From contig OZ024754.1 in the NCBI GenBank assembly GCA_964016885.1, positions 16,678,001 through 16,742,000 on the forward strand: a stretch of DNA of 64,000 bases, read 5' to 3'. The stretch comes from Eledone cirrhosa (Eukaryota). Positions within the stretch are counted from its first letter, which is position 1; each line of letters starts with the position of its first letter. Below are positions 6,871 through 59,506 of the stretch, piece after piece. Below the pieces are notes generated by a model, which worked only from the letters and a program-made list of their open reading frames with translations, was not told the origin of the DNA and made no database searches. Position numbers and translations under genes: made by a program.

Positions 6871-9444
6871 CAACTGAATAGTTTTAACAAAAGTTCAAAG
6901 TTCACAAATATCATTAGTGTTCAAGGCTGCTATTGTTTAGTAGTTGATTTAGTGTTAATATATTTAAAACGAATAGAGTAGTAACTCCAGGTATTATGGA
7001 AAATTTACATACCTGCTATAATGTTTGTAATTCAGCAGCTAGGTAAACGTAATTTGTATGTTAATAATTAACGTCTGAATGTCAGTAATTAATACATCAT
7101 CATCATTAACATTTTACATCTACTTCACTGGCATGGGTTAGACAGGTTGTCACAATTTGAGATCTAAGGAGTCAGAATGACCTAAGAGTTAGGGTTGTTT
7201 GTGTTTCATATTTTGTATGGTTGGATGCCCTTCCTAATGCCAACCACCTTAAAGAGTATACTGGCTGCTTGTTTTTGTGGCACTGGAACTACCACTTTAC
7301 AGAATGTTCTGTATATATTCTATCTTGGGACCAACACTAGGGAGGTTGTCACATGTACATCCAGACTAAAGAGTCCCCTCAAGTCTTACACTGCTTCCAT
7401 TTGATTGCCAACACTGTAGCCTCTGGGATTTCACCATGTTTACTTTTGGTGTTACATTGCTTGTACTGGTGGAAAATATATATTACATGAATATCATTTG
7501 TCCATTATACTGTACAAATTGTAAATATTCCTTGGAACATATCAGTTATACCCTCTCTTTGACTGGTGAATGTTGTTGCTTCACTGGTCCCATTTTGACT
7601 GACCTCCTCAACAAAGAATAGCCTGGACAGTAGTTGTCAGAATAATCTCTAAGCATACATATTGGCATAAACAAAACAGAATCATTTAGAAATTAAATTA
7701 CTCAAAAATGCCATCTGTATGAAACAATAAATAATTTATTGCTTAATTTTGGTGACTTAGTGGAATTTATATTACCATTTGGCTGGATAATACCCAATTG
7801 ATGTTGTCGCTTTGTGAGCTGCTTTAGGTGTACTCTAAGCTATATCATACACACTAAATTGTAACTTTATGCAATTTACCTTGCCAAATGATCTGCATAT
7901 AATTCACTGCAATCAAAGTATGGAAGACATTTTATGCTTCAATGAAGAAGCTAAGTCTAATTTAATTGTTGGAATTCATTACATGACAATTTGCCAGAGC
8001 AGATCATTATTAGTTTCTTAAAATTCTACTATTTTTATTATTCTCTAGGGACTGGATTGGAAGGTCCATTAGAGGCAGTGGATTGGCAGGCCCATGTCGT
8101 ATTTAGTTATAACTTTCTACATTCCAAGTTCAAATCCTGCTAAGGTCGACTCTGTATTTCATCCTTCTGCAGTCAATAAAATAAAGTACCAGACAATTAT
8201 TGGTGTTGATATAACCCCCTCTCCTCACCAAACAAATTCCTTTGTTCTCACTATACCTTTCTCAAAGAATTCAATATTACAAACTCAATGCTAAATTATC
8301 TCTTAAACACTTCAATGTATCCCTAACCCTTTAGATATCAACCCAGCCAAAATTGCCTCTGTTTCTAGAAAACAAAGAGTACCTGTGTAAATTTAAATCT
8401 TCCAAAATAATTTATGAAAATCTTTTAATAAGTTATGTTGTAATTACCATTAAGAGGAAGATAGGAAAAAGAAAAATAAGGAGGTGAATCAACTCTTTCT
8501 CACATTAACGCAAAATCAGTATTTCAAGGAAAGTCCATTACATCTACCCTATTAACTGATGGAAGGTTTTTTTTTATAGATATCAACATTTCTCCTCACC
8601 CTAAGTGGATAAATCTTTTGATTTTTATTATTAAAAAAATATATAAAATAAATATTAAAAAATAAACAGCTTAGTATTGTAGAACTAAGGTCAGTTTCAG
8701 GTGGCTTCATATTGAAAGGTATGAATATTATCCAAAAGTTCTGAATTTGAAGTACAAGTCAATATAGATAGAAATTATAGTAATAAAAAGTAAGGCAAAA
8801 ATGATTTTGTTAATAAAAACTTCATTATAAATATAATACACAATTTCCATATTTATTAAAATTATGGTTAAAACAGTTCAGTATGGAAACAGTCTTTATG
8901 TGATGGCATAACACATCAATATGCCAAAGTATAAATTCTTAACAAGTGATTATATTGTTTCTTTATTACTTCAACTCTTGCAATAGAATGTCTATTAAAA
9001 AAATGACTACCCCCCCCCCCCCCCCTCTCATTTCTATTCCAGCAATTATAGCATGGGTGGGATTGTTCTAGTAATTTAGATATTTCTATATAAATTATTG
9101 ATGAAAAAAAAAGTGTTTTTTTTGGGGCCATTTGTTTCCTTTCATTAAGTCGGTCATTTTGATGTGAAGTAGAAATCACTATTTTTAGCAAAAGAGACAA
9201 AAGCAAACTAAATAATGTCGCACCTGATAAATAATTGTTTCTACTTTTTGGCACAAGGCCAGCAATTATCCTAGTGCATTACTGGTACTTTATTTTATTG
9301 ACCCCGTAAGGATGAAAGGCAAAGTTAACCTCGGCAGGATTTAAACTCAGAATGGCAAGGGCCGTAACTCTATGCGTCAAAGCATGGCATCCGACCCTCT
9401 ACTGATACTGCCAATCCACTGCACCTGATTAATAATGATAATAA

Positions 9445-11919: not shown

Positions 11920-12481
11920 TTAGTGCTCTGAAATAGCGATATATATATGAATGTATATATAGTGTATTTTGCAATACACTATATGCTTAATTCAAAGCAT
12001 TTTGAAGACCTTACGCTATTGTTTTAAAGTAGTGACTATGTCACTTACTTCTATTTTCAGCAAACAAGGGTAGATAAGCTGACAGAGCTCTGTTTCGTAC
12101 TGTTGGTTTTCAAAAAGCTTTAATTAAGCATATAGTGTATTGCAAAATAGACTATATATACATTCATATGTATATCGCTATTTCAGAGTACCAATTCTAA
12201 TTTTCAATTTTTGCTGGACCGGCAACTGCTCTGTATAATCAGTTCCTGATTATTACTGGAATTCTATAAGAATCCAACATTCATAATTTTCAGCAGACAG
12301 GAGTGCTAGGCTTTGATAAGTACCAACAGTACGAAACAGCTCTGTCAGCTTATCTCCCCTTGTTTGCTGAAAATAGAAGTAAGTGACATAGTCACTACTT
12401 TAAAATAGTAGCGTAAGGTCTTCAAAATGCTTCTAATTAAGCATACAGTGTATTGCAAAATACACTGTATATACATTCATA

Positions 12482-15528: not shown

Positions 15529-15717
15529 CACATAATTTATCTCCATATGTGGTTGATGGCTGAGAGAAAAAGAGCACTCAATACCAAAGTAAAGTTTTAA
15601 TATTAATTTTATTACGGTTAAATAGTGAGTCTTGTAACTCTGGAGTTCCACCTGTTAATCACAGAGTCAGCATAATGACCCTGTGATTAACAAGACTGTG
15701 ATTTAGCCTTAATAAAA

Positions 15718-15764
<47 letters not shown>

Positions 15765-15770
<6 letters not shown>

Positions 15771-17171
15771 GAGCAGTCAGCAAAGTTAGGATTAACAATG
15801 AGTATAGCGAGGAATTTAGCATACAGGTTGGGGTCCACCAGGGCTCTGTTCTTAGCCCCATCCTGTTCATCATAGTCCTGCAGGCAACAATGGAGGAGTT
15901 TAAGACCGGATGCCCATGGGAACTCCTGTATGCTGATGACCTCGCACTTATAGCTGAATCTATGGTAGAACTAGAGAAGAAATTCCAAACTTGGAAGCAA
16001 GGACTAGAAAGAAAGGGTCTCAAAGTCAACATGACAAAGACTGAGGTCCTTGTAAGTAGACGAGAAGATAGACCCCAGATCCTCTCAGGGAAATGGCCTT
16101 GCTCAGTATGTAGGAAAGGCATAGGTAGGAACTCCATTCTCTGCCCCAAATGGAAACAATGGGTACACAAGAGATGTAGCGGGATCTCAGGAAGCTTAAT
16201 TAAGAATGTAGGCTTCACATGCAGCAGCTGTGCTGGGACAGCAAGCAGCAAACAGCCACAGGAAACAAGTACCACCAATCTCTGGGAGGGCTCTGTAGAA
16301 ACAGTAGACAGCTTCTGCTACCTAGGTGACCAAATTAGCAGCGGAGGTGGGTCTTCAGAAAGTACAATAACTAGGGTAAGAACGGGATGGAAGAAGTTTA
16401 GGGAACTACTACCAATGCTAGGTGCAAAAGGCTTCTCCCTCAAAATGAAAGGCAGACTGTATGATGCGTGTATCTGAACAGCGATGTTGCATGTTAGTGA
16501 GACCTGGGCGCTGAAGGTGGAAGACTTACGTAGATTAGAGAGAAACGAAGCCTGCATGCTCCGATGGATGTGTAATAGTAATATACGCGAACGGCAAAGC
16601 ATAAATGAATTGAGAGAGAGACTGAGCATAAGAGGAATCAAATGCTGTGTGCAGGAGAGGCAGTTGCGTTGGTATGGACATGTGATGCATATGAAGCATG
16701 ACAGCTGCATAAAAAGGTGCAGAGCACTAGAAGTCGATGGAAACCGCGGAGTGAGGAGACCCAAGATGACCTGGGATGAGGTGATAAAAGCCGACCTTAC
16801 TCAATTACACCTCTCAAAGGCGATGACACATGACGTCATGCAGTAATACAGAGTACCCGACCTCCCATGGGTACAAGCTGAAGCATATAGACAATATGCC
16901 CCCATCCACCCCACTGAAAGGTGGTCATGGAGGTGCCACGGCAGAAAAGCACCCAGCCCACACTGTAAAGTGGACATGTAGGCGCCACGAAAAAGCACCC
17001 AGCAGTCACTGTAAATGAGGTTGGTGTTAGCAAGGGCATCCAGCTTTAGAAATCAAGCCAAATCAGTTCCTGTATGAGCCGACCAGACACTGCCCACAAC
17101 AGGACAACCCGTCTAACCCATGCTAGCGTGGAAGAATGGACGTAAAACGGTGATGATGATGATGATGATGA
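15765..17171 (+). mobile_element. 5'-truncated RTE-BovB-type LINE (RT, Cys/His finger, C-terminus, 3' UTR, (ATG)n tail)
   Basis: GVHQGSVLSP and ELLYADDL motifs, CSVC..C..WVHKRC..CSSC, RWYGHVM; in-frame stop at 16475; begins inside (TA)n. Confidence 0.95.
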
Positions 17172-18710: not shown

Positions 18711-19245
18711 TAATTCAAGAGATAAGAGTAACATGGTTGTCTGTACAATAAGGGCTTTATTCAGAGTGCTGACAATTGTTTCTTTGATCTGGTAGGTCTA
18801 GGTGTCATTATTTTAACTATTCAGTATCTAGTTATTTTGTTATTGATATTATTGTTCTGGTCTAATACCACTCTATAAAAGCCATGCCTTGCGTATTATC
18901 CTCACATTCGCTCGCTCTGATGAATTAACTAGTTATAAACAAAGTATTGGAGATCGATTGACGCAACATCTAGCGATTAGTGAACTCTAGACCTACCAGA
19001 TCAAAGAAACAATTGTCAGCATTCTGAATAAAGCCCTTATTGTACAGCCAACCATGTTACTCTTATCTCTTGAATTATATACTCCAAGTATAACCTACAT
19101 AGAATTCACCGTGAACTCGCTGCATCACTATGGAAGCATCTTGTTGAGTCAAACTAAGCCATACGTTAATACCATCCACAACACGGAGTACTCTAACTAT
19201 ACTACCTCTAAGTGGACTGCCTATAACGATAACTTGTTATCCCGT
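18711..19245 (+). mobile_element. Fold-back Penelope pLTR-like module with long-stem-II hammerhead (18914-19020); diverged minus-strand relative at ~19833-20078
   Basis: 18711-18801 is inverted to 18987-19077. The fold reads GCT-CTGATGA-[82 nt]-GAAA-CAATTG-TC|AGC. Confidence 0.7.
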
Positions 19246-21189: not shown

Positions 21190-21362
21190 AAGTGTGGTAA
21201 GGAACCAGTTAGACCATTACTCACCAGAGTACTCGATACTTAGGGTAGTAGAGTGGGTAATAGGAAAAGAGTCAGGACCCCAACAGCTGAGCTCCGGCCG
21301 TTTCGGCAGCTAGATCCGAAATAGTCGGAGCTCAGTCATCAGTGTCCTGACTCTTTTCCTAT
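21190..21362. mobile_element. Fold-back module with ~100-nt hairpin; related copy at ~36870-36986
   Basis: ATAGGAAAAGAGTCAGGAC (21260) pairs with GTCCTGACTCTTTTCCTAT (to 21362), plus an inner 20-bp stem. GTGGTAAGGAACCAG...CTCACCAGAGTACTC is shared with 36871. Confidence 0.75.
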
Positions 21363-28400: not shown

Positions 28401-30528
28401 ATCATCATCATCATCATCACCGTTTTACGTCCGTTCTTCCACGCTAGCATGGGTTAGACGGGTTGTCCTGTTGTGGGCAGTGTCTGGTCGGCTGACCATG
28501 CCTTGCTCATACAGGAACTGATTTGGCTTGGTTTCTACAGCTGGATGCCCTTCCTAACACCAACCTCATTTACAGTGAGTGCTGGGTACTTTTTTTCCGT
28601 GGCGTCTACACGTCCACTCTACAGTGTGGGCTGGGTGCTTTTTTTCCGTGGCACCTCCAAGACCACCTTGCGGTGGGGGGGCCCGGGGGCATATTGTCTA
28701 TATGCTTCAGCTTGTACCAATGGGAGGTCTACGCATCATACAGTCGGATACACGCATCATACAGTCTGCCTTTCATTCTGAGGGAGAAGCCTTTTGCAGC
28801 TAGCAGTGGTAGTAGTTCCCTAAACTTCTTCCATCCCATCCTTACCCTAGTTATTGCACTTTCTGAACACCCACCTCCGTTGCTAATTCGGTCACCTAGG
28901 TAGCAGAAGCTGTCAACTGTTTCTACAGGGCCCTCCCAGAGATTGGTGGTACTTGTTTCCTGTGGCTGTTTGCTGTTTGCTGTCTCAGCACAGCTGCTGC
29001 ATGTGAATCCTACATTCTTAATTAAGCTTCCTGAGATCCCGCTACATCTCTTGTGTACCCATTGTTTGTATTTGGGGCAGAGAATGGAGTTCCTACCTAC
29101 ACCTTTCCTACATACTGAGCAAGGCCATTTCCCTGAGGGGATCTGGGTTCTGTTTTCTCGTCTACTTACAAGGACCTTAGTCTTTGTCATGTTGACTTTG
29201 AGACCCTTTCTTTCTAGTCCCTGCTTCCAGGTTTGGAATTTATTCTCTAGTTCTACCATAGATTCAGCTATGAGTGCGAGGTCATCAGCATACAGGAGTT
29301 CCCATGGGTATCCGGTCTTAAACTCCTCCGTTATTGCCTGCAGGACTATGATGAACAGGAGAGGGCTAAGAACAGAGCCCTGGTGGACCCCAACCTGTAC
29401 ACTAAATTCCTCGCTATACTCATTGCTAATCCTAACTTTGCTGACTGCTCCCCTATACATGTCTTGTACCGCTTTCACAAGCTATTCATCTACTCCTAGT
29501 TTTCTAAGAGCCCACCAGATTACTGCACGTGGAACTCTGTCAAAGGCTTTCTCAAGGTCGACAAATGCCAAGTAGAGTGGCTTACTTTTAGCTAGGTACT
29601 TTTCCTGTAAATTGTCTCACAAGGAAGAGGGCATCAGTGGTGCCTCTTCCTGGTACAAACCCAAATTGCATCTCGTCTATTTTCACCTGGTCCCTAATCA
29701 GCTGTGCTATAACTCTTTCTGTTACTTTCATGACCTGGTCCATCAACTTTATACCTCTATAGTTTCCTCTATCTAGTGCATCGTCTTTACCTTTGTAGCA
29801 GTTGACAATGATGCTACTGCACCAATCTTTTGGTATGGCCCCTTCTAGTATTACCTGGTTAACGATACGTGTGGTTATAGTGTGACCTACAGACCCAGAT
29901 GCCTTCAGCATCTCGGCAGCTATACCCGATGGACCGGTTGCCTTCCCCATCTTCATATCTCTGATTGCCTTACTTACTACACTGCCGCTGACTTGTACTG
30001 CTGGTCCCTCTATAGGTTCTACTTGGAGTAGGGTCTCTTCTTCCCATGCATTCTCCTCATTTAGTAATCTATCATAATGACTCTTCCATGCATCTTTCTT
30101 CTCAGCACTTGTGAGGGCAAGCTCACCTTTATCATTCCGGATACACTTCTCTCCAATGACATCACAACTATCTCTGACACACTGCCTCGCAATCTTGAAC
30201 ACCTCCTGTTTCTGGTCCTCACGTTGTAAAACATGCTTGAATTTTCTATCCTCTGCTTCCCTCCTAGCTAAGTATACTTGTCGCCTAGCTTCCCTCTTGG
30301 TCTCTATGTAATGTACCCTGCTCCCCCCGTTCTTCCATTCTTTCCATGCCTGTCTCTTGGCCTTGACTGCTTCATCTACCTTATTGTTCCACCACCAAGT
30401 CACTCTCCTCCTGCTTGAGGTCTTACTCCAGCCACAGACCTCGTCCGTCGCCTCTAGTAAATTATTTTTTAGGAACTCCCAGTTCTCTTCTACATTAAAT
30501 GTCTCTATCTGTTCTTCTTTACTGTCGT
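28401..30528 (-). mobile_element. 5'-truncated RTE-BovB-type LINE, frameshifted, with internal 3' deletion
   Basis: TWWWN, NYRGIKL, QFGFVPGRGTTDALF, GVHQGSVLSPLLF, YADD and a Cys/His finger; 3' UTR and tail at 28401-28728. Confidence 0.96.
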
Positions 30529-30537
30529 ATATATATA

Positions 30538-30587
<50 letters not shown>

Positions 30588-31141
30588 ATATATATATTTA
30601 TATTAAATATATATATTTATATTAAATATATATATTTATATTATATATATATATTATATATATATTTATATTAAATATATATATTTATATTAAATATATA
30701 TATTTATATTATATATATATATTATATATATATTTATATTAGATATATATATTTATATTATATATATATATTATATATATATATATATTATATATATATT
30801 TATATTAAATATATATATTTATATTATATATATATATTATATATATATTTATATTATTATATATATATTTATATTATATATATATATTTATATTATATAT
30901 ATATATATATATATATAGTTATGTAATAAACAACATAAGGCAATTATTTCATTTACCAGTGGTTTCTTAAAAGCAAAAAAATGTTGCTTTCAATCATCAG
31001 AATGAAAAAATCCTGGTGTATTTATTGACGTTGGATTTTAAAAACAAAAATGCAATCTATATGAAAGTGACGCTGGAAAAGGAAGAAGGAAAGGAAAAAT
31101 AAAATAAAAACACACATGCAAACACACACACAATCATATAC

Positions 31142-31355: not shown

Positions 31356-31572
31356 TATATATATATATATATATTTAAATTATATATATATATATATTTA
31401 TATTATATATATATATATATTTATATTATATATATATATAAATATTTATATTATATATATAAATATTTATATTATATATATATATATATTTATATTATAT
31501 ATATATATATATATTTATATTATATATATATATATATTTATATTATATATATATATATGTATATGTAATATA

Positions 31573-32710
31573 TAGTAATAATAATAAATTTGAAGACTAA
31601 AATCCAAAGAGGGCTCGATAAGGATAAATATATATCAAATATATAAGAACCATAGAGCAAATATTTATTAAAATAACAGATTAAAGTTTAAGCAAAGATT
31701 CGCTGCTTTCACCCTTAACAGGATCTTCTGAAACTAACAAAGTCAATCTGTAAACACAGAAGTAGATATTTCAAAAAACGTTGCAACCGGAGGAAGACAG
31801 GAAGACGATACTTTGGTTCGTGGAAACGTTCGCTATGCAAATAAGTAATGGTATAAACAAAACATATACTTAGCTCCCACATCAAGACGTAAAATATCCA
31901 CGTATAAATCGTACTATCCGTTAGGATATAACGTGGTGCTGTAATACAGGAAAGTTTTGTGCAATTTATGTTTACAAGCCGAAATTGCCTCAGATTTTTT
32001 GTTTAAGATGTGGTCTATGGCGTAGAGTATTTCCAGGGCCTCAGCGGCGCAGAGGTCACATGGTCTTTTATTTCCGTTATACGATCTAGCCCTAGCTAGG
32101 ATCTCCCAGTGTAACTTATATTGGGTGTGGTTGTCTTTTAGACTCCAGATATAAGCTGAAAGTGACGTCATATTCCTTCTTAGAGGGTAACAAAAAGAAT
32201 GGGTATGCATGTAAAGACGCTGCTTGAATCTATTGGCGGTTAACCCTATGTAGGCCCTACGGGACGTGGGTGTTACAACCTTACATTTGTAGACAATGTT
32301 ACTAGAGAGGCATTTCCCGGATAGGGGGCAATCAATCCGATTCCTACAATTACAGTTAGTACTAACTACAGGGTTGCACGTGTTCCTACGGCTAGGTAGT
32401 TTAGCTAAATTTGAAGCTGTGATGTTATGTGCAAGGTTAGGAGTCGTAGAGTAAGAAATTTTAATAGTATTTCTATTAAAAATTTTACTATATTTATGTG
32501 TAGGGAGAAAATGCTTCGTAATAAGGGAGAGAAAGATCTTAGCTAAAGGTGTGGCCACCTCCATATTATATGGTGGGTTATACCAACAAATGCGACGGGA
32601 TCTATTTCTTCTAGGTCTATTTTCGTACTATGTATATGCTACCTTATCGACAAATCCACTTTGAGCAAGAGCTTCATTGTAATAAGTGGAATGGTCGTTG
32701 AAAATATAGT
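31573..32710 (-). mobile_element. Penelope-like element 3' portion: GIY-YIG endonuclease plus pLTR
   Basis: KIFNRNTIKISYS...CNCRNRIDCPLSGKCLSSNIVYKC...YIGLTANRFKQRLYMH...TSLSAYIWSLK...CDLCAAE...LNKK (ORF 31914-32564); pLTR ~31573-31900. Confidence 0.93.
31677..31750 (-). ncRNA. Variant type I hammerhead (A4 core) in Penelope pLTR
   Basis: Minus strand: AGTTT-CAGAAGA-TCCT(GTTA)AGGGT-GAAA-GCAG(CGAATCT)TTGC-TT|AAACT, with a distal stem CAGATTGA/TTAATCTG. Confidence 0.6.
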
Positions 32711-33311: not shown

Positions 33312-34116
<805 letters not shown>

Positions 34117-34137
34117 ATATATATATATATATATATG

Positions 34138-34360
<223 letters not shown>

Positions 34361-34380
34361 TATATATATACATATATATA

Positions 34381-34725
34381 TGGAGGAGGTTACTTGAAGC
34401 ATTGTGTAATGAGGTATAAACGTTTGTATATGTATAATAAAGCCAAAACAATGCAGATATGGACATAGAATAAAATGCAAATGCAAAAGATATTGTTGAT
34501 AATTAGTCTTTTACCTTAGATAATATCTCTTCTTCGGAGGGAAGTAAAGCGGTTAAACCAGTGTTCTAAATAGCTTGCCAAGTCTATTATCTCGAAAATT
34601 AAGGACATTTAAATAAATCTAAGGTAAAAGACTAATTGTCAACAATATCTTTTGCATTTGCATTCTTTATTCTATGTCCATACCTGCATTGTTTTGGCTT
34701 TATTATACATATACAAACGTTTATA
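34381..34725. mobile_element. Fold-back module inside (TA)n
   Basis: ~34415-34521 is inverted to ~34617-34724; shares TTGAAGCATTGTG with the 33346 and 17731 modules. Confidence 0.75.
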
Positions 34726-35058
34726 TATATATATATATATATATATATTAGCCTCTTAATTTTCTTCTAGTCTAATAGGTTTATTGGAGCCTGTAAGCTT
34801 TATGCACTCATTGAGGGATTTTCTAAGGTGCTTCTACGGGACCCCAAGTCTTTTAGTTTAATGTTGATGCGTAAATTATATATTTTTGTCTAATTTTTAA
34901 ACTTCAATCCCTGACCCCGACAACTAATATAAAAGAGCCCCCCTTAGAATATTGACCCCAACTATACAAGCGGAGTTGCTGATGTATACAACAATTTCAA
35001 ACTGCTACCCTTGAGTGATACGTTGATGTAAACAATGATCTTGCAATCACATGTTATA

Positions 35059-35105
35059 TGCCTTGATAAGTCCCACCATGGGGTCGGACGAAACGGCTGT
35101 CGGCA
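35059..35105 (+). ncRNA. Minimal type I hammerhead ribozyme, U3-A8 core, in module ~34750-35258
   Basis: TGCC-TTGATAA-GTCC-C-ACC(ATGG)GGT-C-GGAC-GAAA-CGGCTG-TC|GGCA, with AATAAA starting at the last base of stem I; predicted cleavage after 35101. Confidence 0.85.
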
Positions 35106-35256
35106 ATAAACTTGTTATAATGTCATAATAGTTCCTTTGTTCTTTTTCACTAATATTTCTGCTCTGCGTATACGCATAGAGCTTAACTAGCTACCGTCAC
35201 ATATTTGGTAAGTCAGACGTGATCATCGCGATTCACATACGACCTACCATACATCT

Positions 35257-35381
<125 letters not shown>

Positions 35382-35397
35382 ATATATTATATATATA

Positions 35398-35440
<43 letters not shown>

Positions 35441-35504
35441 ATATATATATTATATATAATATATATATATATATATAATATATATATATATATATAATAT
35501 ATAT

Positions 35505-35573
<69 letters not shown>

Positions 35574-35582
35574 ATATATATA

Positions 35583-48322: not shown

Positions 48323-48391
48323 ATATATTTTATCTGATGAAAACGTACTGAAACACCATTGTACCTTTGAAATATGTATAATAAAATATAT
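48323..48391 (+). ncRNA. Type I hammerhead ribozyme, canonical core
   Basis: ATATATTTTAT-CTGATGA-AAA-C-GTAC(12 nt)GTAC-C-TTT-GAAA-TATGTA-TA|ATAAAATATAT; perfect 11-bp stem I; predicted cleavage after 48380. Confidence 0.85.
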
Positions 48392-52486: not shown

Positions 52487-52576
52487 TGTGTCCGAAGAAC
52501 CTGCAGATCTAGAATCAGACAGATCCATACAGTGATCGTGTCTCGAGCTATCTGCCGGCGAAACAATTGTAACACA
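52487..52576 (+). ncRNA. Long-stem-II type I hammerhead, C4 variant core, in module ~52284-52615
   Basis: TGTGT-CCGAAGA-ACCT-GCAGAT...AGACA-GATC...GATC-G-TGTCT...ATCTGC-CGGC-GAAA-CAATTG-TA|ACACA, then AATAAA. Confidence 0.7.
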
Positions 52577-54780
52577 CAATAAACTGAGTCCAGATGCATC
52601 ACTGATTTTTCGTTTTATATTATATATATATATATATATACGTATATATATTACTTTCCACAACAATTGTCTGTCAAATATTACTAGTTGCACCTGATAG
52701 GCACACAAGTTCCCATCCCAACATACATCTATTAATAAATTATTTTACATAATGTTCTAAACTCCAGCTCAATTCTAACTCAAGAAAGTAGGTTAAATTA
52801 ATAAATATCTCAAACTTCTTGATTATTTTCAAAATGATTTGAAAACCACAGGCAGCATCTGTTATTAGAAACATAGTAATGGAAGGAATTAGTTATGTCC
52901 CTACTCTATAGTTACTATTATATTTTCACAGTAAAGGCTTTACCTTACATAATTATCTCACATAATATCGAATCTAAGATTTTGATATTATTTATTTTGA
53001 GAACAATACCATAACGTCAGTATGAGTGGCCAGTTACAGCCAGTTTGAACAGAAAGAGGTGAAAGAATTTTGGTCAGATATAGCCAGTTTAAATGCTAAA
53101 GGTTAATGAAGATTTAATGGAGGGATTTTACTAAAGTTATTAAATATTGTATCATTATGGTAGTAACCTAATATATAGTTCTTATATTTATAGTTAAACA
53201 GGGTTATAGGAAGGAATATTCACTATATCTCCAGTTACTTTCATTACTCACTCAACGAGGCAAGATTTGAACATATAACCATGTGAAGCGATACCCAGAG
53301 TACTTACAATATGTTATTCATAATGAGGATGGTTGCACGTGGATGTCTTGGATCAATAGATCTAATGGTTTCTGCAAGTATAGACTGATCTGATAAGTGC
53401 ATCTGTAAATTGTTTTTCATAAGGTGTATTAGCCATTTTCTATATTGCTTCATTGGTGGAATGGCCTCTTGATAGCAAGAGAAGACCAAAGGGTCAACCG
53501 ACCTTTCACATTAATAATTACTATTACATAAGCAAGAGAGACAGTCAGCAACATGTGACAACGATAGATTCGACCATCGTTAGGAGCAGTTCTTAATATA
53601 AAATTATGCTAGAAGATTTTTATTTTTTAAAGTTGGTATCAAAAGAATTAATGCGACATAAATAATTTCAGGTGGCAAATTGGCAAAGCTGTTAGACTAT
53701 TGGATAAATTGCTTTGCTGATGTATTAATTCTGGTTGACTGTACCCTTTGATTTCAAATCCTGCCAAGATCAACTTTGTCTTTTATCTTTTCAAGTTTGC
53801 TAAAAGAAGTACCACTAGTGTTGATTCCTTCTCTGTATCTTTTTCTCACTTTCCCCCCTCTCTCCTTCCCTGGATAAAATCTGCTGTGTTCAGACCTGAA
53901 GAGTGGTTGGGTTCTACCAGATTAAAAATGCCTTTATGTATCCCTACGAGTTAGGTGTCCACACATACAAATAATTTGAAAGGCTCTGCTTGCACTAACA
54001 CCTTTTTTGCTATAAAATCAAATTCGAAAAATTCCAGCTAGCACCTGTTGAAGGGAATGTCCCATTGTGTAAGCTATACAAAGATATTTATAATATTTAC
54101 ATATCAGGTATTAGTTCTAGATCAGATTAACCGTTCAGGAAAAAGAATTACATAACAAATGCTACATTCTTATAAATGATTGGTAAATTTAAGAATATAA
54201 GATGTTTTCATTGCTGCCTAAAACTTTTACTGCACTGAATGAACAATTCCCATGTAGTGTTTTATTTTTTTTAAGCACCCAAGCATATGAGGAATCAAAA
54301 ACAGATCAGCATGCTGTTTTCTTTCTTCTTCCTACCTCACCTGGATTGTTGATTTGCATGAACTCATCTCTCTAAACCATTTTTTGGAGAGAGAGAATCA
54401 AGGAAATGTAAAGTAGGAATGTGTGTGGGGTTTTTTTTCCGTACTTTTACTCATAATGTTATAATATATATATATATATATCATCATCATTTCATTTTAC
54501 GTCCGCTTTTTCCCTGCTTGCAAGGGTGGGACGGGAACTGATTCTGGCTTGATTTCTACAGCTGGATGCCCTTCCTAACACCAACCTCATTTACAGTGAG
54601 TGCTGGGTGCTTTTTTGCCGTGGCACCTCCATGTCCACTTTGCAGTGGAATGATAGGGACTGGGGTCCCTATCATCTCATTTCTACAGCTGAGTAAATAT
54701 ATAGTAAGTATATATATATAGATATATAGATATATATATATATATTTGTATATATATATATATATGTGTATATATATATA

Positions 54781-57132: not shown

Positions 57133-59506
57133 TATCATCATCATCATCATTTTACGTCCGCTTTTCCCTGCTTGCAAGGGTGGGACGGGTCTTATTCAGC
57201 ACAGCATCTCTCCACTCGTCACGGTCCTTCGTCATCTCCACCGTGAGCTTCAATGATCTGAGGTCTGTTCTCACCACCTCCGCCCATGTTTTTCGTGGTC
57301 TACCTCTACCACGTCTCCTTCAACTGGCATTTCCTGGCACTTCTTCACCCATCGGTCATCCTCCATGGGCATTACATGCCCATACCACCTCAGTCTTCTC
57401 TCCCATACACTACATTCTATCCCTCTCAGACACAGTTTCTCTCTCAACACATTTATGCTGGGTCGTTCACGCACATTTACACTGCACATCCAACGGAGCA
57501 TGCTTGCCTCATTTCTCTCCAGCCGTCGCATATCCTCTGCAGTTGCTGCCCATCGCGCTCCTCACACAGGCATCATACAACCGGCCTTTCGTACGCAGGG
57601 AGAAACCCTTCTTCGTCAACAGAGGAAGCAGCTCCCTAAACTTCTTCCAAGCCGTCCTTATTCTAGATACTATGGTTTCGGAACACCCTCCTCCCATGCT
57701 AATCTGATCTCCTAGGTACCGGAAGCTATCCACCACTTCTATAGCGCCCTCTTGCATTTGAAAAATGTGTCTATCAGTGCGACTTCTACTGTCTAATTTC
57801 CCTGTACATCTACTGCATACATATTTCTCCCTACCTGTTAGTTTGCCTGCTATCCCGCTACATCTCTTGTGTACCCAGGATCTGCATTGTGTGCATTTTA
57901 TAGAATTCATGTCAGTTCCTTTTCTGCATATCGAATATGGCCATTTCCCTGACGGAATCAGGGTTTTGTCCTCTTTTCTACTCATCAACACTTTTGTCTT
58001 AGCTAGATTCACTCTCAGTCTTCTTGCTTCCAACTGCTGTTTCCATAGCCAGAATTTATTCTCTAGCTCCTCTACTGATTCTGCTATAAGAACCAGATCG
58101 TCAGCATAGAGAAGTTCCCATGGACAGCCAGTCTTAAACTCCTCTGTTATGGCTTGGAGGACTATAATGAACAAGAGCGGGCTGAGGACCGAACCCTGAT
58201 GTACTCCTACTTGTATCTGGAATTCCTCACTAAACTCCATTCCTACCCTGACTTTACTGAGAGTACCTCTGTACAAAGTTTGCACTGTCCTCACAAGCCA
58301 TTCCTCAACACCTAGCTTCCTTAGGGACCACCAGATGACAGATCGGGGTACCCTATCAAAGGCCTTCTTTAGGTCAACAAAGGCTAAGTATAATGGCTTA
58401 TTCTTCTCTAAGAACCTCTCTTGCATTTGTCTCACCAAGAAGAGGGCATCTGTTGTACTCTTCCCAGGCACAAAACCAAACTGCATCTCATCTAGTTTGA
58501 CCCTTTCTCTAATTAGTTGTGCTAAAATCCTTTCTGCCACTTTCATAACCTGATCTATCAGTTTTATACCCCTATAATTGCTCCTTTCCAAAGCATCCCC
58601 TTTACCTTTGTAGCAATTTATGAGAATACTGCTGCACCAGTCTTTGGGTATGACACCACCATATATAGCCTGATTGATGATGCGGGCAACCAGTTTAGTG
58701 CCTACGTCCCCTGATGCCTTCAGCATCTCAGCAACTATTCCCGATGGTCCAGCCGCCTTACCATTTTTCATTTCCCTAATCGCCTCTTGGACCCTATATT
58801 CGTCAATCTCAATAGCTGGTCCCTCTGTAATTCCCTCTTCAAGGGTAATTTCTCTCTCTCCCATTCGTTCTCCACATTCATCAGTCTCTCATAATGACAT
58901 TTCCAGGCCTCCTTTTTCGGATCATTCGTGACACTAAGTACACCGGCATCATCCCGGACACATTTATCTCCAACAACATCCTGATTTGCATTGACACACT
59001 GCCTTGCAATGTAGAACACCGCACGCCTCTGATCTTCCCGTCGCAGAACATTGGCAAACCTCCTACTCTCAGCCTCCCTGTGTGCTAAGTACACCTGACG
59101 TCTAGCTTCTCTCTTAGTGGCTGTATATTCTTCCCTACTCCCACCCTTTTTCCAAGCCTTCCATGCTAGTCTTTTGTCTCTAATGGCTCTATCTACTGTG
59201 CTGTTCCACCACCAGGTCACTCTCTGTCTGGTTGGAGCTCTGCTCCAGCCACAGGTTTCATCAGTAGCCTGCAGCAAGTTGTCACGTAAGAAATTCCAGT
59301 TATTATCTATGTCATACGTCTCTAAATCGTCTTCTTTTTCGTCATATACATCTTGAAGGGCTTTCCTAAATTTGTATTTTAGTGAAAGGTCTTTTAGCTT
59401 CCAGACCTTTCTTCTCCACACCTTCCTATATGTCTCATTCCATCTCTTGCTTAGTGAGATATCACTAACAACTAACCTATGCTGTGGGGTACATTCTTCC
59501 CCAGGG
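57133..59506 (-). mobile_element. 5'-truncated RTE-BovB-type LINE, second subfamily, frameshifted
   Basis: TWWWNS, KAAGPSG, NYRGIKL, AFVDLKKAFDRV, GVHQGS, YADD, Cys/His finger, RLRWYGHV. Confidence 0.96.

What the first reader, a model, noticed from the sequence alone, without database searches (positions are those of the whole stretch)
35059..35112. Second, unrelated U3-A8 hammerhead followed directly by AATAAA
A compact fold with GC-rich stems (TGCC/GGCA, GTCC/GGAC), a GUC cleavage triplet and a quasi-palindromic stem III CGGCTG. AATAAA also follows the motifs at 19028, 42849 and 52578 and overlaps the cut at 48380, which suggests a coupled ribozyme/3'-end signal (inference).
Basis: partly seen in the sequence, partly recalled or inferred. 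Interest (0 to 1): 0.75.

Follow-up and report, generated by a model that had tools for sequence, protein, structure and literature searches.

The report
Penelope hammerhead with conserved AATAAA behind
This is a known kind of small RNA fold, predicted to cut itself in pairs, at the end of a jumping gene with over 800 copies in this animal genome; many related jumping genes here also carry the hexamer AATAAA just behind the predicted cut, which likely serves as their transcript-ending signal but has not been tested.

Summary
35059-35105 is a minimal type I hammerhead with a U3-A8 core and a self-complementary stem III that folds only as a dimer in silico. It lies in the 3' end (pLTR) of a young Penelope-like retrotransposon with Hydra-clade protein motifs, at least 823 copies. 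U3-A8 in Penelope hammerheads is published (PMC4209133), so the ribozyme is ordinary. The AATAAA link is not explained by composition: AATAAA is the top hexamer of 4096 just after the cut, in 9 of 24 hammerhead families (0.5-0.8 expected; 6 of 19 held-out families). The five positive families I could tie to a protein are all Hydra-type, so it is probably one inherited trait. It is not tied to U3-A8. A poly(A)/termination role is about even odds: insertions end 50 and 157 nt past the cut without A-tails, and published Hydra families mostly lack the hexamer. No RNA data were available. The scan noted other Penelope hammerheads in this genome, none on this DNA or on AATAAA.

The parts
34750..35258 (+). 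5'-truncated 3' end (pLTR with tail) of a Hydra-type Penelope-like retrotransposon, between (TA)n runs
   Evidence: longer copies carry RT and GIY-YIG coding sequence upstream on the same strand
34928..34935 (+). TATA-box candidate TATAAAAG, 153-174 nt before the cut (inferred promoter)
   Evidence: no shared subfamily variant in 34921-34945; distance
35059..35105 (+). Minimal type I hammerhead: stems I and II, U3-A8 core, predicted cut after C35101
   Evidence: subfamily changes fall at N7 (35067) and loop II (35080-81)
35093..35100 (+). Self-complementary stem III; 8-bp helix between two molecules
   Evidence: self-duplex -9.7 kcal/mol; pairing within one molecule about 0.01
35105..35110 (+). 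AATAAA, starting 3 nt after the cut
   Evidence: one substitution among 115 aligned copies; family enrichment
35111..35149 (+). Conserved segment with CA at 35124-25 and a U-rich tract 35132-47 (fits a poly(A) site and downstream element; inferred)
   Evidence: no shared variant at 8% or more, one at 9 of 115
35150..35156 (+). First fixed insertion end (about +50 from the cut)
   Evidence: 12 of 30 pattern-picked copies; 42 alignments end at 35156
35157..35258 (+). Optional tail of about 100 nt up to the second fixed end (+157); holds a splice-donor-like GTAAGT at 35208-13
   Evidence: 16 of 30 copies end here
35259..35582 (.). (TA)n target microsatellite, followed by an assembly gap

Best explanation
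The motif is a minimal U3-A8 hammerhead in the terminal repeat of a Hydra-type Penelope-like retrotransposon; it is predicted to cut only as a dimer, and the AATAAA behind it is a lineage-conserved signal that likely acts as the element's polyadenylation/termination signal. Shown: the fold, the host element, the copy number, two fixed insertion ends at +50 and +157, the hexamer's enrichment, and that in head-to-tail copies the same unit lies 238 nt before the next ORF start. Inferred: a transcript from the repeat's TATA promoter would carry two hammerheads about 5.3 kb apart; pairing of their stems III would cut out a unit-length RNA and sever it from cap and poly(A) tail, while the hexamer on the 3' product would still let the host machinery end transcription. 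RNAs that read through the signal, or circles of the cut unit, would be the templates copied from +50 or +157 into (TA)n.
For: Host: RT and C-terminal endonuclease coding sequence upstream with DKT, RWR, CxCX5C, CxxC and CxH motifs, matching the Hydra description and by eye the published alignment; inverted 5'-truncated partners and (TA)n targets. Fold under selection: a sister family (63% amino-acid identity, cut 253 nt before its ATG) keeps the fold with paired changes in stem I, stem III and the 3-8 pair. Dimer: cofold minimum is the double hammerhead, -36.1 against 2 x -13.0 kcal/mol. Hexamer: 9 of 24 families, rank 1 of 4096, 0 in the next three windows, TTTATT 0, 0 of 5000 shuffles reach it; AT-matched expectation 0.52-0.84, held-out 6 of 19 against 0.32-0.58; offset varies 0-12 nt, as for a linear signal; 8 of 9 start at or after the last base of stem I; T fraction 12-36 nt downstream 0.47 against 0.31 for 2300 random AATAAA.
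Against: Insertions extend 40-150 nt past the hexamer, so templates pass it. No copy of this family has seven or more A within 28 nt of the searched anchor; one locus of about 27,900 in a related family has an A-run, abutting (TA)n. In tandems the hexamer lies between TATA box and ORF, where a strong signal would abort the mRNA. In the sister cluster only 3 of 9 hits keep AATAAA (others AATAAT, AACAAA). Only 1 of 26 published Hydra rows has AATAAA within stem I plus 20 nt (counted by eye). One Hydra-linked family here has AATGAA. The positive families are probably related, so the P values overstate independence. AATAAA-negative families are also T-rich downstream (0.39). In a Poseidon element the hammerhead needed protein, was dispensable for insertion in vitro, and no RNA-seq read ended at its cut (PMC11167929).
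Confidence: 0.5

Rival explanations
1. Same hammerhead and host, but AATAAA is part of an element-specific recognition motif in the 50 nt before the first insertion end, bound by the element's own RT/endonuclease to set where copying starts.
For: Hexamer-to-first-end distance is roughly 38-56 nt in the positive families where an end was seen. The whole segment 35102-35149 lacks shared variants. 9 of 15 H. magnipapillata rows keep AAAGTT after stem I rather than the hexamer. Three negative families carry a different motif, CCCTTG(C/T)TT, at the same place. PAc binds RNA just after its hammerhead and starts internally.
Against: The exact canonical hexamer, not a neighbour, ranks first, at variable offsets; variants seen include AGTAAA and AATGAA, recalled as weak poly(A) signals.
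Confidence: 0.3
2. AATAAA is a TATA-like promoter element for an ORF transcript that starts near the first insertion end.
For: TCACT, described as Inr-like in a rotifer pLTR, sits at the first end here and in other families; published Hydra rows show CATAAA and TATAAA.
Against: Hexamer-to-TCACT spacing is about 41-44 nt and variable, longer than the recalled 28-33; a better TATA box lies at 34928-35.
Confidence: 0.08
3. AATAAA is only the 3' strand of an A/U-rich stem I or its extension, or an inherited neutral remnant.
For: In the most abundant cluster the hexamer lies in stem I opposite a T-rich strand; here its first A is in stem I; positive families may share one ancestor.
Against: 8 of 9 families have it at or beyond the stem's last base; it persists among families whose endonucleases are about 40% identical.
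Confidence: 0.12

Closest known systems
Minimal hammerheads of Penelope-like elements, including the U3-A8 variant of Schistosoma mansoni Cercyon (Cervera and de la Pena 2014, PMC4209133; parts 1-2 of 4 read)
   Same: Type I, short stem I, palindromic stem III, in pLTRs, mostly in truncated copies; U3-A8 reported with about 1,300 hits; dimer needed, low activity in vitro.
   Different: Here the host has Hydra motifs, stem II is 4 bp with no unpaired base after A9, and AATAAA follows; the parts read do not mention it and the search listing shows 0 occurrences.
Hydra clade of Penelope-like elements (Craig et al. 2021, PMC8557442; passages, section 11 and supplement parts 1, 2, 52 plus one search)
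   Same: DKT, RWK-like, CxCX5C, CxxC/CxH motifs, C-terminal endonuclease, (TA)n targets, 3' hammerhead.
   Different: Unit about 5.3 kb with a 2.4-kb 3' region (published mostly under 3 kb); U3-A8 core (all 26 published rows C3-G8); tail about 100 nt (published 30-40); AATAAA in 1 of 26 published rows.
PAc Poseidon element of Anolis (Frangieh et al. 2024, PMC11167929; parts 1-2 of 4 read)
   Same: Hammerhead at the pLTR-ORF junction; two internal start sites of reverse transcription downstream of it define the tail.
   Different: Other clade; its ORF starts inside the hammerhead, here 238 nt after the cut.
Clec2 3'-UTR hammerhead of mammals (seen only as a passage of review PMC6765202)
   Same: Cut lies upstream of a poly(A) signal, so cleavage removes it from the mRNA.
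   Different: Split, host-gene ribozyme with shown effect; here a dimer-type motif 3 nt from the hexamer in a mobile element, untested.

Membership tests
Minimal type I hammerhead (PLE type) | Core YUGANRA ... GAAA ... UH with Watson-Crick 3-8 pair | tested here: met
   U3-A8, GUC
Minimal type I hammerhead (PLE type) | Stems I and II, G10.1-C11.1 pair | tested here: met
   paired changes in sister family
Minimal type I hammerhead (PLE type) | Palindromic stem III giving a dimer fold | tested here: met
   in silico only
Minimal type I hammerhead (PLE type) | Unpaired base between 9 and 10.1 (common, per PMC4209133) | tested here: not met
   stem II follows A9 directly
Minimal type I hammerhead (PLE type) | Self-cleavage | not testable with these tools
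   needs an assay
Penelope-like element | RT with C-terminal GIY-YIG endonuclease in one ORF | tested here: met
   by motifs and by eye; Pfam GIY-YIG only E 0.009-0.04, below cut-off, no RT family hit; no complete unbroken ORF seen in the copies read
Penelope-like element | pLTR tandems, inverted 5'-truncated partner, optional tail | tested here: met
Hydra clade | DKT, RWK-like, CxCX5C linker, CxxC and CxH around E and N, (TA)n target | tested here: met
   RWR instead of RWK
Hydra clade | Placement in the clade on an RT tree; absence of CCHH by alignment | not tested
Hydra clade | Generally under 3 kb | tested here: not met
   tandem spacing about 5.3 kb (places)
Canonical metazoan poly(A) site | AAUAAA, CA 10-30 nt after it, U/GU-rich tract (recalled definition) | tested here: met
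   sequence; T-richness; sequence pattern only
Canonical metazoan poly(A) site | Transcripts polyadenylated there | not testable with these tools
   no RNA run listed; genomic A-tail proxy negative
Non-LTR retrozyme | Non-coding short tandem units of 150-450 nt | tested here: not met
   coding unit of about 5.3 kb

The most novel reading that the evidence does not exclude
A lineage of Hydra-type Penelope elements has wired a dimer-dependent ribozyme directly in front of its poly(A) signal: uncut RNA is a capped, tailed mRNA, while pairing of two hammerheads strips cap and tail and switches the RNA to a transposition template, with the signal left on the 3' product to end transcription. With tens of thousands of such cassettes, the genome would be strewn with ribozyme-gated poly(A) sites.
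Probability: 0.2. Interest if true: 0.75.

Novelty: new variant of a known kind. Interest (0 to 1): 0.45.

Why it matters
The role of hammerheads in Penelope-like elements is called unclear in PMC8557442, and how their transcripts end was not found described in my searches. A conserved hexamer 0-12 nt behind the cut gives a precise, mutable handle to test whether cleavage competes with or complements polyadenylation, or marks where copying starts. The U3-A8 ribozyme alone is not news.

Tried and rejected
Rfam scan: no hammerhead family among the 150 listed of 247 matches. Monomer folding z-scores near 0. RNA evidence: no RNA holder listed; contigs of four runs showed variants only. Kozak-like ATG in loop II (35078-80) opening 16 codons: not kept in the larger subfamily, where the loop differs; rejected as the ORF start. 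Link of AATAAA to U3-A8: 3,650 U3-A8 pattern matches (control 10); 97 of the first 100 listed belong to another family with no AATAAA within 13 nt of the cut; rejected. Neptune assignment (my first guess): replaced by Hydra. Poly(A)-tailed retrocopies: none here, one doubtful in a related family. PDB search with the RT part: nothing relevant. One cluster of 12 hits was dropped as a minisatellite artefact before counting 24 families. Four AATAAA-positive families could not be tied to a protein. Lunse et al. 2017 and Evgen'ev et al. 1997 were not held; their content and supplements are unseen. Literature searches for a poly(A) signal beside Penelope hammerheads and for U3-A8 found no report of the link; most subscription papers are outside the library. 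Supplements of PMC4209133 were not read and may show such hexamers.

Full report
The motif is as described. Stem I is 35059-62 with 35102-05, the core TTGATAA has U3 and A8, stem II is 35070-73 with 35086-89, and the predicted cut follows C35101. AATAAA is 35105-35110 and shares its first A with stem I. One molecule cannot form stem III (pair probability about 0.01), but two molecules fold at minimum energy into the double hammerhead with an 8-bp shared helix, -36.1 against twice -13.0 kcal/mol. The monomer's folding z-score is -0.04, so the case rests on the descriptor and on comparison, not on stability.

Host element. The window is G000:C14:16678001-16742000 of a 3.0-Gb genome. The motif lies in a 510-nt piece (34750-35258) between (TA)n runs. 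The exact core pattern has 280 matches (control 0); a subfamily with another N7 has 543 more (lower bound). Longer copies carry reverse-transcriptase and endonuclease coding sequence upstream on the same strand, then about 2.4 kb of non-coding sequence before the hammerhead. The protein has DKT, RWR, CxCX5C, CxxC and CxH motifs, which match the Hydra clade of Penelope-like elements (PMC8557442) and resemble its alignment by eye. Pfam support is weak and no tree was built. Copies show inverted 5'-truncated partners and head-to-tail units about 5.3 kb apart (places). In tandems the hammerhead runs on into the next ORF start, 238 nt after the cut. The window's copy has no ORF.

Ends. Of 30 pattern-picked copies, 12 end about 50 nt after the cut, 16 about 157 nt after it, one runs on into a tandem and one stops early. 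In one search, 42 alignments end at 35156 and 72 at 35257-58, the latter including tandems, since the reference stops there. Two fixed ends with an optional tail match the two internal start sites shown for PAc (PMC11167929).

Selection on the fold. Among 124 distinct alignments, shared subfamily variants number 23 in 161 nt and 7 in 89 nt upstream, but inside the ribozyme fall only at N7 and in loop II. Many of these copies were picked by core patterns, which biases core, stem II and stem III; contigs of other runs, not so picked, show the same main sites. A sister family (63% amino-acid identity) has a hammerhead at the matching place with paired changes in stem I, stem III and the 3-8 pair. 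U3-A8 is published for Schistosoma Penelope elements (PMC4209133). It is common here too: 3,650 pattern matches against 10 controls, mostly another family.

The AATAAA test. I scanned 1.86 Mb (1.16 Mb of it from 116 arbitrary places, the rest from my searches) with a relaxed descriptor: 360 hits in 25 clusters, 0 in control DNA. One cluster was dropped as a minisatellite artefact. A family counted as positive if a third of its hits had the hexamer starting 0-12 nt from the cut. AATAAA ranked first of 4096 hexamers, 9 of 24 families; it was absent from the next three downstream windows and occurred once in nine upstream windows; none of 5000 shuffles reached 9 in any of four schemes. Composition-matched expectation is 0.52-0.84; leaving out families known from the window gives 6 of 19 against 0.32-0.58. 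So base composition does not explain it. Five positive families tie to Hydra-type proteins, four are untied, and one Hydra-tied family has AATGAA. The trait is probably inherited once, so the P values overstate independence; what counts is persistence at shifting offsets among families with endonucleases about 40% identical.

What it does. For a poly(A) signal: exact hexamer, variable offset, strand specificity, CA 14 nt later with a U-rich tract here, and T-rich downstream sequence (0.47 against 0.31; negative families 0.39). Against: templates extend 40-150 nt beyond it; no A-tailed copy of this family and one doubtful case in about 27,900 of a related one; the hexamer also precedes the ORF in tandems; the sister cluster keeps it in 3 of 9 hits; only 1 of 26 published Hydra rows has it, while 9 of 15 H. 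magnipapillata rows keep AAAGTT (by eye). From recalled knowledge, not checked here: promoter-proximal poly(A) signals are weak, as in 5' LTRs, and a ribozyme's 5'-OH end is a poor entry for the terminating exonuclease, so a signal behind the cut could still be needed. I put the signal role at 0.5, recognition by the element's own protein at 0.3, the rest at 0.2.

Verdict. The ribozyme is a new member of a known kind. The hexamer behind the cut in this lineage was not found in print in six searches or in earlier notes of the scan, and makes this a variant worth a modest test. No RNA data bear on cleavage or polyadenylation.

Noticed in passing
L036 about 7700-7760 (+); L031; L245; window about 52490-52583: A U4C core (CCGA.GA) recurs in several hammerhead families, some Hydra-linked.
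   Followed up: partly
window 12307-12350 (+); L139-L168: The other U3-A8 hammerhead belongs to a large family, often in tandem units of about 316 nt, with covarying palindromic stem III and CCCCTTGTTT-like sequence after stem I.
   Followed up: partly
window 35208-35258 and L120-L129: Candidate 60-nt intron from GTAAGT/GTAGGT to TTTAG between hammerhead and ORF start; the second insertion end lies inside it. Not clearly matched in the sister family.
   Followed up: partly
window 31560-32630 (-): Remnant of another Hydra-type element, endonuclease 42% identical, with a decayed hammerhead-like stretch near 31700.
   Followed up: partly
window 42654 (-) and 42795 (+): Inverted pair of hammerheads of a very abundant Hydra-linked family; one exact 27-nt pattern has 27,948 matches.
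   Followed up: partly
window about 21260-21342 (-): CTGATGA ... GAAACGGC motif with extra strands, resembling the permuted hammerheads of earlier notes.
   Followed up: no
window 33346-33960 and 34352-34730: Two other (TA)n-inserted pieces with internal inverted repeats next to the element.
   Followed up: no
L036, L176, L116 (sister family): The subfamily that has AATAAT after the cut has AATAAA just before stem I instead.
   Followed up: no
window 35147-35152; L282-L311; L031: TCACTA marks the first insertion end in this family and in a distant Hydra-type family.
   Followed up: partly
window 15700-16850, 28700-30600, 57500-59500: LINE-type reverse-transcriptase fragments by eye; no host gene seen among ORFs of 110 codons or more.
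   Followed up: no
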